Source: a virus (taxonomy: Duplodnaviria; Heunggongvirae; Uroviricota; Caudoviricetes). Taken from it: 47,135 bases of DNA. Of this stretch, positions 43,025 through 45,496 are shown piece after piece. Made by a program: the position numbers and the translations under genes. The DNA lies in the IMG/VR virus record IMGVR_UViG_2541047877_000007. One strand, 5' to 3'. How positions within the stretch are numbered: position 1 is the first letter of the stretch; each line of letters begins with the position of its first letter. Below the pieces are notes generated by a model. That model was given only the letters and a program-made list of their open reading frames with translations. It was not told the origin of the DNA and did no database searches.

Positions 43025-45496
43025 ATGAGTAAAGTCTTTATTTGCGCCGCTATTCCTGACGAACTGGCAACAAGGGAAGAAGGCGCTGTGGCTGTAGCCA
43101 CAGCCATTGAAGCTGGCGACGAACGCCGTGCTCGAGCAAAATTTCACTGGCAATTCCTGGAACATTATCCGGCTGCTCAGGACTGCGCTTATAAATTTAT
43201 TGTCTGCGAGGATAAACCTGGCATACCCCGCCCTGCCCTCGATTCATGGGATGCTGAATATATGCAGGAAAACCGCTGGGATGAGGAGTCTGCTTCTTTT
43301 GTCCCGGTTGAGACTGAATCCGATCCGATGAACGTCACTTTTGACAAGCTGGCCCCTGAAGTACAGAACGCTGTCATGGTTAAGTTCGACACATGTGAAA
43401 ACATCACCGTTGATATGGTTATTAGCGCACAGGAATTGTTGCAGGAAGACATGGCAACATTCGACGGACATATCGTTGAAGCGTTGATGAAAATGCCAGA
43501 AGTTAACGCCATGTATCCGGAGCTTAAGTTGCACGCCATTGGGTGGGTTAAGCATAAATGTATTCCTGGTGCTAAATGGCCCGAAATTCAGGCAGAGATG
43601 CGCATCTGGAAAAAACGTCGCGAAGGTGAACGCAAGGAAACCGGAAAATACACGTCTGTTGTTGATCTCGCCCGCGCCAGAGCCAATCAACAGTACACTG
43701 AAAATTCAACAGGAAAAATCAGCCCGGTCATTGCTGCCATTCATCGCGAATACAAGCAGACATGGAAAACACTGGATGACGAACTGGCCTACGCTCTCTG
43801 GCCTGGTGATGTGGATGCCGGAAACATTGACGGCAGCATCCATCGCTGGGCAAAAAATGAAGTTATCGATAACGACCGCGAAGACTGGAAGCGTATCTCG
43901 GCATCAATGCGCAAACAGCCTGATGCCCTTCGCTACGACCGCCAAACTATTTTTGGCCTTGTCCGTGAACGTCCGATCGACATTCACAAAGATCCCGTAG
44001 CACTGAACAAATATATCTGCGAATACCTGACGACAAAGGGCGTGTTTGAGAATGAAGAAACAGACCTGGGCACTGTTGATGTTCTCCAGTCATCAGAAAC
44101 ACAAACTGATGCAGTGGAAACTGAGGTATCTGATATCCCAAAAAATGAAACCGCGCCGGAAGCTGAACCATCTGTAGAGCGTGAGGGGCCGTTCTATTTC
44201 CTCTTCGCAGATAAGGACGGAGAAAAATACGGTCGCGCAAACAAACTTTCTGGTCTGGATAAGGCACTGGCTGCTGGCGCCACTGAAATCACAAAAGAAG
44301 AATATTTTGCCCGAAAAAATGGCACATACACGGGCTTACCGCAAAATGTAGATACCGCTGAAGATTCAGAACAACCAGAGCCGATAAAAGTTACCGCTGA
44401 CGAAGTAAACAAAATTATGCAGGCAGCCAATATCATCCAGCCTGACGCCGATAAGTTGCTTGCTGCATCACGTGGTGAATTTGTTGAAGGGATTAGTGAC
44501 CCGAATGATCCGAAATGGGTTAAGGGGATCCAGACCCGCGATTCTGTGAACCAGAACCAGCATGAATCGGAACGGAACTACCAAAAAGCGGAACAAAACA
44601 GCCCAAATGCGTTACAAAACGAGCCAGAAACGAAACAGCCTGAATCAGTGGCGCAACAGGAAGTGGAAAAAGTCTGCACCGCCTGCGGTCAGACCGGCGG
44701 CGGCAACTGCCCTGATTGTGGCGCGGTAATGGGCGACGCAACATACCAGGAAACATTCGATGAAGAGTATCAGGTTGAAGTTCAGGAAGATGATCCGGAG
44801 AAAATGGAAGGCGCTGAACATCCACACAAGGAGAACACTGGCGGCAATCAGCATCACGATAGCGATAATGAAACTGGCGAGACGGCAGATCACTCAATTA
44901 AGGTGAACGGTCATCACGAAATCACATCCACCAGCAGGACGTGTGACCATCTAATGATCGACCTTGAAACCATGGGAAAAAATCCTGATGCCCCGATCAT
45001 CTCAATAGGTGCAATATTTTTCGATCCGCAAACCGGAGATATGGGACCGGAATTTATTAAGACTATCGATCTGGAAACTGCTGGCGGAGTCATTGATCGG
45101 GACACCATTAAATGGTGGTTTAAGCAATCACGCGAAGCGCAATCTGCCATTATGACCGATGAAATCCCGTTAGATGATGCACTGTTACAATTGCGGGAAT
45201 TTATCGACGAAAACTCCGGTGAATTTTTTGTTCAGGTCTGGGGAAATGGAGCCAACTTCGACAACACGATTTTGCGCCGTTCATACGAACGGCAGGGGAT
45301 CCCCTGCCCGTGGCGTTACTACAACGATCGCGATGTACGCACAATCGTTGAGCTGGGGAAAGCCATAGACTTCGATGCCAGAACGGCTATTCAATTCGAA
45401 GGTGAGCGCCATAATGCACTTGATGACGCCCGTTACCAGGCAAAATACGTTTCAGTTATCTGGCAAAAACTGATCCCGAGTCAGGCTGATTCTTAA
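43025..45496 (+). CDS. large early protein with C-terminal DEDDh (DnaQ-like) 3'-5' exonuclease domain and internal zinc ribbon
   Basis: 823 aa; Exo motifs [21 protein letters not shown] and HNALDDARY in the last 180 residues; CTACG...CPDCG ribbon near residue 555; occupies the exo/recE position of a Rac-like early operon. Confidence 0.8.
   Translation: [823 protein letters not shown]

What the first reader, a model, noticed from the sequence alone, without database searches (positions are those of the whole stretch)
43025..45496. Early-operon protein combining a long unassigned N-terminal region, a zinc ribbon and a C-terminal DEDDh 3'-5' exonuclease
The three DEDDh motifs are clear in residues about 640-810 (DNA 44940-45480). 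The gene occupies the position where Rac-type prophages encode RecE/RecT, but no RecT-like annealase ORF is present and the nuclease fold is DnaQ-like rather than a 5'-3' lambda-Exo type. The acidic, low-complexity middle region and the CxxC...CxxC ribbon (44674-44722) suggest a multi-domain recombination or anti-restriction factor.
Basis: partly seen in the sequence, partly recalled or inferred. Interest (0 to 1): 0.5.

Follow-up and report, generated by a model that had tools for sequence, protein, structure and literature searches.

The report
Intact ydfE: RecE-scaffold 3'-5' prophage exonuclease
This is the intact form of the E. coli K-12 pseudogene ydfE, a very common prophage gene that joins the middle part of the RecE recombination nuclease to a different, 3'-to-5' exonuclease; it is already annotated and catalogued, but nobody has tested what it does.

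Summary
ORF 43025-45496 (+) encodes 823 aa with a four-Cys zinc ribbon (C551/C554/C562/C565) and a C-terminal DEDDh exonuclease (Pfam PF16473, E=1.6e-66; D646, E648, D746, H796, D801).

It is not new. The DNA is 100% identical in many E. coli genomes (PGAP name "exonuclease") and matches at 80% coverage or more in 3537 of 5426 complete genomes. Its first 256 aa equal the IS2-truncated K-12 pseudogene ydfE. It is 99% identical to the "exonuclease VIII" of phage Tritos.

Residues 262-625, zinc ribbon included, are true homologues of RecE residues 278-591. RecE's PD-(D/E)XK nuclease is replaced by a T4 DexA-like DEDDh domain. No RecT is present.

In every relative I examined, DEDDh variants sit directly before xis-int (or int) with no annealase. 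Every relative with a recognisable PD-(D/E)XK nuclease has RecT as the next gene.

The prophage is Chi-rich (9 sites against 1.6 expected). This matches the published "Tritos-type" nuclease-only, RecBCD-dependent lambdoid class.

Most likely it is an early-expressed 3'-to-5' DNA-end exonuclease working with host recombination. Its biological role is untested.

The parts
43025..45496 (+). Whole gene: intact ydfE, an 823-aa 'exonuclease' (RefSeq WP_000048333.1)
   Evidence: ORF list. 100% DNA identity to many E. coli genomes, annotated 'exonuclease'. The first 256 aa are identical to the K-12 ydfE pseudogene. PHROG 2082 covers aa 1-822 of 823.
43025..43324 (+). N-terminal alpha/beta domain (aa 1-100), specific to the YdfE type
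43325..43639 (+). Helical domain (aa 101-205)
   Evidence: AF2 pLDDT 88-96. dN/dS 0.07-0.27.
43808..44899 (+). RecE-homologous central region (aa 262-625, matching RecE aa 278-591)
   Evidence: BLASTP 2e-61. tblastn of RecE hits window 43808-44899. NCBIfam NF007259 matches this part only.
43757..44044 (+). Helical domain (aa 245-340)
   Evidence: AF2 pLDDT 88-95. dN/dS 0.05-0.13.
44186..44320 (+). Small beta-beta-alpha-beta-alpha domain (aa 388-432)
   Evidence: AF2 pLDDT 90-95. dN/dS 0.05-0.08.
44432..44539 (+). Conserved motif [28 protein letters not shown] (aa 470-505), shared with RecE
   Evidence: R, G, I, S, D, P, D, K and W of the core are invariant across 20 sequences that carry different C-terminal domains.
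44675..44719 (+). Four-Cys zinc ribbon CTAC-x7-CPDC (C551, C554, C562, C565)
   Evidence: Seen directly in the sequence. All four Cys are invariant in the 9-sequence alignment with RecE and relatives. Zinc binding is inferred, not tested.
44948..45463 (+). DEDDh 3'-5' exonuclease domain (aa 642-813); catalytic D646, E648, D746, H796, D801
   Evidence: PF16473 E=1.6e-66. The only PDB sequence hit is T4 DexA, 8KEL/8KEN. Catalytic residues are invariant. Foldseek top hits are Orn, REXO2 and 3'hExo.
44928..44935 (-). Chi site (GCTGGTGG) inside the gene, one of 9 in the prophage
42329..42380 (+). DicF sRNA, upstream in the same operon
   Evidence: Rfam RF00039, 72.5 bits.
42555..42931 (+). dicB and ydfD, the genes immediately upstream
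   Evidence: PGAP annotation of the identical locus L001, mapped with an offset of +23024.
40685..41143 (+). HTH (DicA/CI-type) repressor at the head of the leftward region
   Evidence: ORF list and PGAP.
45569..47135 (+). Excisionase and integrase immediately downstream, with no annealase in between

Best explanation
This is the intact ydfE gene of a Qin/Tritos-type lambdoid prophage. It encodes a mosaic protein with three parts.

(i) Four small folded domains, of which the first two are specific to the YdfE type.
(ii) The central segment of RecE: an invariant [10 protein letters not shown] motif and a four-Cys zinc ribbon, embedded in acidic disordered linkers.
(iii) A DexA/Rv2179c-type DEDDh domain in the place of RecE's PD-(D/E)XK 5'-3' nuclease.

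Shown here: the architecture, the conserved catalytic residues, purifying selection on the folded blocks, the absence of any phage annealase, and membership of a Chi-rich prophage.

Inferred: the protein is made after repressor loss, as the last gene of the dicF-dicB-ydfD early-left operon. Its C-terminal domain removes nucleotides from 3' ends of DNA by two-metal catalysis. The RecE-type scaffold tethers it to DNA ends or to a host partner.

Inferred role: because it lacks RecT and sits in a phage that apparently depends on host RecBCD-Chi/RecA, it most likely trims or degrades 3' DNA ends. These could be recombination or replication intermediates, or linear host or foreign DNA. It probably does not act as one half of a RecET- or Red-type annealing recombinase.
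For: Architecture: Pfam, NCBIfam and PHROG hits and BLASTP against RecE. Catalytic residues are conserved with T4/T2 DexA.

DNA rather than RNA substrate: DexA, a DNA exonuclease, is the only solved relative found by sequence. The scaffold comes from a DNA-end enzyme.

Modularity: both N-terminal types, YdfE_N and RecE_N, occur with a DEDDh, a PD-(D/E)XK or an unknown C-terminus.

Neighbourhood: the DEDDh variants in the window, strain 118UI, Tritos, mEp460, vB_EcoS-640R1, E. ruysiae, E. albertii (two loci) and Kluyvera (two loci) are all followed by xis-int (or int) with no annealase. The six Rac-type PD-(D/E)XK variants and a Citrobacter one each have RecT as the next gene.

Functionality: dN/dS is 0.05-0.27 in the folded N-terminal and central blocks and 0.09 for the zinc ribbon in the one informative pair; 0.3-0.9 in linkers (one segment 0.26), and about 0.4 for the DEDDh domain in the two informative pairs. 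The gene is carried by the sequenced phages Tritos, HannyBb and mEp460.

Host-dependent strategy: the window has 9 Chi sites against 1.6 expected, split 7/2 by strand. This matches the 'Tritos' nuclease-only class of PMC12315714, Table 1.

Operon: no promoter-like site lies directly upstream of the gene.
Against: No activity, polarity or substrate has been measured for this protein. The founding member of PF16473, Rv2179c, is an RNase (established knowledge), so an RNA substrate is not excluded.

According to PMC12315714 (citing Lovett 2011), 3'-5' exonucleases usually inhibit homologous recombination. A pro-recombination role is therefore not obvious.

The N-terminal domains have no informative structural relatives, so the targeting function is a guess. 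The neighbourhood census is small: about 10 DEDDh loci and 7 PD-(D/E)XK loci, many of them closely related.
Confidence: 0.6

Rival explanations
1. It is a prophage-encoded anti-phage nuclease of the HREX type. Like the E. coli DexA homologue EcD, it would degrade incoming hydroxymethyl-cytosine (T-even) DNA from 3' ends and protect the lysogen.
For: It belongs to the same DEDDh subfamily as DexA and EcD. EcD cleaves T4 DNA and protects against T4 (PMC12153337). The operon already encodes an exclusion function, DicB (title of 10.1101/708461). The gene is retained in about two thirds of complete E. coli genomes.
Against: It is only 37% identical to the EcD-like protein. The Asp whose loss defines EcD's dimer-only, hmC-specific state is retained here: DexA D90 aligns with D718. 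DexA W152 aligns with Y766 and D169 with A780. The gene lies in the repressed early-left operon with no promoter of its own, so it is probably silent in a lysogen. PADLOC gave no hit. EcD is a stand-alone 189-aa protein, whereas this domain is fused to a 640-aa RecE-type scaffold.
Confidence: 0.15
2. It is still a recombinase component. It would generate single-stranded ends for annealing, either with a RecT or Bet supplied by a co-resident prophage or with host RecA. The N-terminal scaffold would promote end-to-end (linear-linear) joining, as reported for full-length RecE.
For: The scaffold is shared with RecE. Full-length RecE enhances linear-linear recombination (review PMC11611040). Sister proteins on the same scaffold carry RecE-type nucleases with an adjacent RecT. 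E. coli genomes carry a median of 2 and up to 10 copies or fragments of this gene family, so prophages co-reside.
Against: None of the roughly 10 DEDDh loci examined had an annealase within 8 kb. A 3'-5' polarity yields 5' overhangs, which are not the substrate that RecA, RecT or Beta normally use. PMC12315714 treats such nuclease-only modules as 'somewhat suspect'.
Confidence: 0.15
3. It is a 3' exoribonuclease, like the Pfam family founder Rv2179c. It would act on phage or host RNAs, for example in operon mRNA or DicF processing, or in host RNA turnover.
For: The best Pfam family is named for an exoribonuclease. The nearest solved folds to the model are the oligoribonucleases Orn and REXO2 and 3'hExo. 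The gene lies in an operon whose transcript is processed to DicF.
Against: The only sequence-level PDB relative is DexA, a DNA exonuclease. The fusion partner derives from a dsDNA-end enzyme. The Foldseek hits are weak (E about 1e-2) and come from a low-confidence model with pLDDT 55.9.
Confidence: 0.07
4. It is a decaying, functionless prophage remnant.
For: The K-12 copy is cut by IS2 with no known phenotype. Many database entries are fragments.
Against: The reading frame is intact and the catalytic residues are conserved. dN/dS is 0.05-0.27 in the folded N-terminal and central blocks. The gene is present in the sequenced phages Tritos, HannyBb and mEp460. Most 'partial' entries come from short contigs and are probably cut at contig ends.
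Confidence: 0.03

Closest known systems
RecE (exonuclease VIII) of the Rac prophage, E. coli K-12 b1350
   Same: Same operon position, between the cell-division inhibitor genes and xis-int. The central region is homologous: aa 262-625 align to RecE 278-591 at 39% overall and about 85% in the last 150 residues. This includes the [10 protein letters not shown] motif and the four-Cys ribbon. Both have acidic disordered linkers.
   Different: There is no PD-(D/E)XK (PF12684) nuclease; a DEDDh domain of opposite polarity stands in its place. The first 260 aa are unrelated to RecE's PF06630 N-terminus. No RecT follows. The NCBIfam RecE equivalog scores 281 bits against a cutoff of 1269.
Phage Tritos TRITO_27 'exonuclease VIII' and the 'Tritos-type' nuclease-only Rec module (Zheng et al., Genome Res 2025, PMC12315714)
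   Same: 99.0% nucleotide identity over the whole gene and the same CI-DicF-dicB-ydfD-exo-xis-int arrangement. No annealase, SSB or anti-RecBCD gene. Chi-rich, with a 7/2 strand split that sits at the low end of the published class range of 21/6 to 7/2 (Table 1 of the paper).
   Different: Essentially none; this is the same gene in prophage form. The main text of the paper does not dissect the protein's domains or test its function.
T4/T2 DexA (exonuclease A; PDB 8KEL, 8KEN)
   Same: Same DEDDh subfamily and the only solved structure found by sequence (E=1.4e-6). All five catalytic residues align. [quoted passage not shown]
   Different: About 26% identity. DexA is a stand-alone 227-aa protein of a lytic phage with extra loops. 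The hmC-recognition residues W152 and D169 align with Y766 and A780 here.
EcD, the 'HREX' anti-T4 DexA homologue of E. coli (Kang et al., NAR 2025, PMC12153337)
   Same: Same domain family in E. coli (pro)phage DNA. The domain starts at the equivalent Met: MIDTET in EcD against M644-IDLET here.
   Different: 37% identity. EcD is a stand-alone 189-aa protein. It lacks the DexA D90 equivalent (A78), whereas D718 is retained here.
Stand-alone DnaQ-like exonucleases next to xis-int in other lambdoid phages (LLS gp34, PhiR46_1)
   Same: 53-57% identity to aa 636-823. LLS gp34 has the same position directly upstream of xis-int, in a Rec-module-less, Chi-rich phage (PMC12315714).
   Different: They have no RecE-type scaffold and are only about 190-200 aa long.
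K-12 ydfE (b1577) pseudogene of the Qin prophage
   Same: Residues 1-256 are 100% identical, with the same flanking genes dicB and ydfD.
   Different: The K-12 copy is truncated by IS2E and lacks everything from aa 257 onward, including the exonuclease.

Membership tests
DEDDh (DnaQ-like) 3'-5' exonucleases, Pfam PF16473 Rv2179c/DexA-like | Profile score above the curated threshold | tested here: met
   223.8 bits against a cutoff of 27, covering aa 642-813 and 2-177 of 177 profile positions.
DEDDh (DnaQ-like) 3'-5' exonucleases, Pfam PF16473 Rv2179c/DexA-like | Exo I D-x-E, Exo II D and Exo III H-x4-D catalytic residues | tested here: met
   D646 and E648, D746, and H796 and D801 align with DexA D7, E9, D119, H186 and D191. 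They are invariant in 6 sequences.
DEDDh (DnaQ-like) 3'-5' exonucleases, Pfam PF16473 Rv2179c/DexA-like | Metal-dependent 3'-5' exonuclease activity | not testable with these tools
   Needs an enzyme assay.
RecE / exodeoxyribonuclease VIII (NCBIfam NF007259 equivalog) | Full-length equivalog score | tested here: not met
   281 bits against a cutoff of 1269. Only model positions 271-602 match.
RecE / exodeoxyribonuclease VIII (NCBIfam NF007259 equivalog) | C-terminal PD-(D/E)XK 5'-3' nuclease domain (PF12684) | tested here: not met
   No Pfam hit. No BLASTP similarity to RecE residues 600-866.
RecE / exodeoxyribonuclease VIII (NCBIfam NF007259 equivalog) | N-terminal Exonuc_VIII domain (PF06630) | tested here: not met
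   No hit in this protein. The domain is present in sister DEDDh proteins P0126 and the Kluyvera one.
RecE / exodeoxyribonuclease VIII (NCBIfam NF007259 equivalog) | Central region with the conserved motif and the four-Cys ribbon | tested here: met
   BLASTP 2e-61 for aa 262-625 against RecE 278-591. Invariant columns.
RecE / exodeoxyribonuclease VIII (NCBIfam NF007259 equivalog) | Adjacent RecT annealase partner | tested here: not met
   tblastn finds no hit below E=0.5 in the whole window. xis follows directly.
HREX anti-phage DexA homologues (EcD type, PMC12153337) | Loss of the tetramer-forming Asp (DexA D90) | tested here: not met
   D718 aligns with D90. The EcD-like sequence has a gap or Ala there.
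HREX anti-phage DexA homologues (EcD type, PMC12153337) | hmC-recognition residues (DexA W152 and D169) | tested here: inconclusive
   The alignment gives Y766 and A780. The loop alignment is uncertain and acidic residues D782 and D784 lie nearby.
HREX anti-phage DexA homologues (EcD type, PMC12153337) | Protection against hmC-containing phages | not testable with these tools
   Needs plaque assays.
Tritos-type nuclease-only, Chi-rich lambdoid phages (PMC12315714, Table 1, class B) | Nuclease gene of the Tritos type in the early-left operon | tested here: met
   99.0% identity to TRITO_27 and the same gene order.
Tritos-type nuclease-only, Chi-rich lambdoid phages (PMC12315714, Table 1, class B) | No annealase, SSB or anti-RecBCD gene | tested here: met
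   No RecT by tblastn. None is annotated by PGAP across the prophage. The other early-left ORFs are ydfA, a protein of unknown function (phrog_35040), dicB and ydfD. Only RecT was searched directly; Beta, Erf, Sak, SSB and Gam rest on the annotation.
Tritos-type nuclease-only, Chi-rich lambdoid phages (PMC12315714, Table 1, class B) | Four or more Chi sites on the 'top' (rightward-transcript) strand | tested here: met
   7 Chi on the window '-' strand, which is the sense strand of cro, replication, Q, lysis and late genes, and 2 on '+'. Expected total is 1.6, and none of 100 shuffles reaches 9.

The most novel reading that the evidence does not exclude
The RecE-family N-terminal and central scaffold is a general, exchangeable DNA-end (or host-factor) targeting platform. 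It can carry at least three alternative C-terminal effectors: a 5'-3' PD-(D/E)XK nuclease, a 3'-5' DEDDh nuclease, and a roughly 270-aa domain that may be a Rad52-like annealase.

On this reading, the DEDDh version defines a distinct, uncharacterised phage strategy. One possibility is that it cooperates with host RecBCD-Chi/RecA by trimming 3' ends in phages that have given up their own annealase. Another is that it selectively destroys competitor or host linear DNA. Identifying the partner of the invariant [10 protein letters not shown] and zinc-ribbon segment would also explain the long-unknown function of RecE's own N-terminal 600 residues.
Probability: 0.25. Interest if true: 0.6.

Novelty: already known. 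Interest (0 to 1): 0.3.

Why it matters
This is one of the most widespread prophage genes in E. coli. About two thirds of complete genomes hold a near-full-length copy, and up to 10 matching places (copies or fragments) occur per genome. Even so, its function, and that of the RecE N-terminal region it shares, has never been tested. A review as late as 2023 still calls RecE's N-terminus 'of unknown function' (PMC11611040).

The gene is the only recombination-type gene in a recently recognised class of lambdoid phages that appear to live off host RecBCD-Chi recombination. Knowing what a 3'-5' exonuclease does there would clarify how such phages replicate and package DNA. It might also yield a new recombineering accessory or an anti-phage nuclease. 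As a genome-scan finding, however, it is an already annotated, catalogued gene and not a discovery.

Tried and rejected
- AF2 of aa 440-823. Confidence was low (pLDDT 55.9). The zinc-ribbon region was predicted disordered, and only the DEDDh fold was recognisable.
- PADLOC defence models gave no hit.
- Anti-restriction or DNA-mimic idea. The only support is the acidic composition, so I did not pursue it.
- Literature on ydfE, Rv2179c, and RecE plus DEDDh yielded no functional study of this protein.
- A locus search with the divergent N-terminal alignment A1 failed because no stretch was conserved enough. I replaced it with the central-motif alignment A2.
- Test of whether the unknown 270-aa C-terminus of sister proteins is Rad52-like. 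The PDB profile search found nothing. Pfam and NCBIfam gave no hit. Inconclusive.
- Whether EcD is a fragment of this protein: rejected. The EcD primers identify a distinct stand-alone 189-aa protein that is 37% identical.
- Own promoter for lysogenic expression: none was found above chance.
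Full report
**1.

The window has an 823-codon ORF at 43025-45496 (+), preceded by a GAGG ribosome-binding site.

- Pfam places a Rv2179c-like DEDDh 3'-5' exonuclease domain at aa 642-813 (PF16473, E=1.6e-66, 223.8 bits against a cutoff of 27).
- The catalytic set is D646 and E648, D746, and H796-x4-D801.
- These residues align with D7, E9, D119, H186 and D191 of T2/T4 DexA. They are invariant in an alignment with four prophage homologues.
- The CxxC...CxxC element is C551/C554 and C562/C565, DNA 44675-44719.
- The middle of the protein is acidic, with D+E around 20%. 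It is predicted disordered between the folded blocks.

**2. What the gene is.**

- The DNA is 100% identical to many complete E. coli chromosomes, where PGAP calls it 'exonuclease' (WP_000048333.1).
- 4800 of 5426 complete genomes have a match, and 3537 have one covering at least 80% of the gene. The median is 2 places per genome and the maximum 10.
- The window is essentially the whole Qin-type lambdoid prophage between ydfJ' and rspB, more than 99.9% identical to strain 118UI.
- Gene order around the finding is: HTH repressor, ydfA, a 191-aa protein of unknown function, DicF sRNA (Rfam), dicB, ydfD, this gene, xis, int.
- In K-12 the same position holds the pseudogene ydfE, cut by IS2E. Its first 256 residues are 100% identical to this ORF. 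The finding is therefore the intact ydfE.
- The gene is also carried by the sequenced phages HannyBb, PhiR42_1 and Tritos (99%) and mEp460 and PPompW (90-92%).
- PHROG 2082 ('exonuclease') covers the full length.
- Precomputed annotations list two recent Pfam families, PF27430 and PF27432, on the N-terminal 260 residues. They are absent from the local Pfam copy, so I could not read their names.

**3. Relation to RecE.**

BLASTP against K-12 RecE aligns aa 262-625 with RecE 278-591 (2e-61). Identity is 39% overall and about 85% from aa 470 onward. That stretch includes the motif [28 protein letters not shown] and the zinc ribbon. Residues 1-260 and 640-823 have no RecE counterpart.

The NCBIfam RecE equivalog matches only its positions 271-602 and scores far below its cutoff. 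The protein is therefore a chimera. It has RecE's central scaffold, a different N-terminus, and a DEDDh nuclease where RecE has its PD-(D/E)XK 5'-3' nuclease.

**4. The family is modular.**

An exhaustive HMMER search with aa 1-640 found 245 representatives at E<=0.001. I classified those of 450 aa or longer against domain references and Pfam. This gave:

- YdfE-type N-terminus with DEDDh (P0121).
- RecE-type N-terminus (PF06630) with DEDDh (P0126, Kluyvera, and phage vB_EcoS-640R1 in the same dicB-ydfD-exo-xis-int context).
- YdfE-like N-terminus with a PD-(D/E)XK domain (P0129; also P0193 and P0225 by similarity to the RecE nuclease).
- RecE itself.
- A large group of 680-814-aa proteins, most of which match no Pfam family (two carry only the N-terminal PF06630).

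The only segment invariant across all of these is the [10 protein letters not shown] core.

**5. Neighbourhood.**

Every DEDDh variant examined is followed directly by xis-int (or int), with no annealase within the flanks:

- the window;
- strain 118UI;
- Tritos;
- mEp460;
- vB_EcoS-640R1;
- E. ruysiae L009;
- E. albertii L010 and L011;
- Kluyvera L020 and L021.

All six Rac-type PD-(D/E)XK variants (L012-L017) and a divergent Citrobacter braakii one (L018; RecT Pfam E=5e-42) have RecT as the next gene.

tblastn of RecT against the whole window finds nothing. The swap to a DEDDh nuclease therefore goes with absence of the annealase. The sample is small and partly redundant.

**6. Is it functional?**

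- AF2 on aa 1-460 gives four confident folded blocks: aa 1-100, 105-205, 245-340 and 388-432, with pLDDT around 90. Disordered linkers separate them.
- dN/dS against mEp460 and two E. albertii alleles is 0.05-0.27 in these folded blocks. For the zinc ribbon it is 0.09 in the one informative pair. In the linkers it is mostly 0.3-0.9, and in the DEDDh domain about 0.4 in the two informative pairs.
- Strongly varying dS along the gene shows recombination between alleles.
- Together with its presence in sequenced phages and the intact catalytic residues, this argues against a decaying remnant.

**7. What the parts resemble.**

- The only solved structure found by sequence is T4 DexA (8KEL/8KEN, E=1.4e-6). 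[quoted passage not shown]
- tblastn finds the domain in 1291 phage records, including T-even dexA genes. It also finds stand-alone genes of about 190 aa in temperate phages, such as LLS gp34, which sits directly upstream of xis-int and is 57% identical.
- The low-confidence model of aa 440-823 matches Orn, REXO2 and 3'hExo.
- PADLOC has no match.

**8. Published context.**

(a) Kang et al. 2025 (PMC12153337) report that E. coli carries DexA homologues. One of them, EcD, cleaves hmC-DNA and protects against T4 ('HREX'). From their primers I identified EcD as a stand-alone 189-aa protein with A78, as they state.

- EcD is 37% identical to the domain here.
- The feature they tie to hmC-only activity, loss of DexA D90, is not present here (D718).
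- DexA W152 and D169 align with Y766 and A780.

(b) Zheng et al. 2025 (PMC12315714) show that lambdoid phages lacking recombination modules are rich in Chi sites and grow better with RecBCD.

- Their Table 1 has a 'Tritos' type: nuclease only, with no annealase, SSB or anti-RecBCD. It comprises 4 phages, with Chi counts from 21/6 down to 7/2.
- Tritos carries this very gene.
- The window has 9 Chi sites against 1.6 expected, and none of 100 shuffles reaches 9.
- Seven sites lie on the strand that is sense for the rightward and late genes. Six lie in the lysis, Q and nin region near the virion's right end.
- The paper also notes DnaQ-like nucleases near int and 'RecE-2' proteins without nuclease domains. 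It leaves their roles open.

(c) A 2023 review still describes RecE's N-terminal domain as of unknown function, although full-length RecE enhances linear-linear recombination (PMC11611040).

No paper in the searchable library tests intact YdfE.

**9. Mechanism.**

Shown here:

- domain architecture;
- conserved catalytic residues;
- purifying selection;
- operon position, with no separate promoter-like site;
- absence of an annealase;
- Chi enrichment.

Inferred:

- After repressor loss the gene is transcribed with dicF-dicB-ydfD.
- The DEDDh domain removes nucleotides from 3' DNA ends.
- The RecE-type scaffold, through its invariant motif and zinc ribbon, tethers it to DNA ends or a host partner.
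- In a phage that relies on host RecBCD-Chi/RecA, it trims or degrades 3' ends of recombination or replication intermediates, or of linear host or foreign DNA. It does not form a RecET-like annealing pair.

Confidence is high for identity and architecture, moderate for DNA 3'-5' activity, and low to moderate for the biological role. Rivals are an HREX-like defence nuclease, a recombinase that uses an annealase supplied in trans, an RNase, and a remnant. Each is listed with its tests.

**10. Verdict.**

The gene is nonetheless a well-annotated, extremely common prophage gene, and its phage class has been described. What remains open is experimental function, and with it the function of the RecE scaffold. 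I rate novelty as already known and interest as low to moderate.

Noticed in passing
window 25446-36294 and 44928 (sites at 25446, 25914, 30215, 34197, 34249, 34782, 34839, 36287, 44928): Nine Chi sites (GCTGGTGG) against 1.6 expected, 7 on '-' and 2 on '+'. Four of them cluster within 650 bp (34197-34846) as two '+' followed by two '-'. The overall pattern fits the Chi-rich, Rec-module-poor lambdoid class of PMC12315714. The tight bidirectional cluster is unexplained.
   Followed up: partly
representatives P0127, P0133, P0134, P0150, P0165, P0179, P0184, P0192, P0209, P0230, P0233, P0254, P0257; locus L019 8405-9223: Many relatives on the same scaffold (phrog_2489, annotated 'exonuclease') end in a conserved domain of about 270 aa with no Pfam, NCBIfam or PDB sequence match. 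It carries the motif KKSLTDAxKKALSxLGFxADV and FGPxGxGWG, which to my eye resemble the Rad52/Sak annealase signature. In Citrobacter murliniae it is a separate ORF followed by Sipho_Gp157. hhalign against RAD52 was inconclusive (22 aa, probability 2.4%). If it is an annealase, the 'exonuclease' annotation is wrong.
   Followed up: partly
window 42329-42380 (+): DicF sRNA (Rfam RF00039, 72.5 bits), upstream of dicB as in K-12 Qin.
   Followed up: yes
window 41493-42068 (+), overlapping 41730-42050 (-): A 191-aa early-left-operon protein with no Pfam hit (phrog_35040, function unknown). Its first 34 aa match the short phrog_2061, and it contains a CPIC motif. It occupies the place of K-12 ydfB and ydfC. 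A 106-aa hydrophobic ORF lies antisense within it.
   Followed up: partly
window 36532-38319 (+): A 595-aa DUF4209 protein encoded opposite to the flanking replication and nin genes, beside hokD. It looks like a moron, a candidate accessory or defence gene.
   Followed up: no
window 6807-8204: Relative to strain 118UI, two adjacent segments are in swapped order: the lom-like gene and the IS200C element. IS200 therefore sits on the other side of lom in this strain.
   Followed up: no
representative P0201 (703 aa): RecE residues 1 to about 528 are fused in frame to RecT sequence. This is an apparent deletion joining recE and recT.
   Followed up: no
locus L005 (phage LLS) 3593-6564: In LLS the stand-alone DnaQ-like exonuclease shares the early-left operon with yfdP, yfdQ (DUF2303) and a predicted deoxyribonucleoside 5'-monophosphate phosphatase. 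This hints at a link between these exonucleases and nucleotide salvage.
   Followed up: no
window 27000-33000: A low-GC stretch (36-39%) of the prophage carries cold-shock genes (cspI, cspB, cspF, ymcF, ydfK-like) and gnsB, as in K-12 Qin.
   Followed up: no
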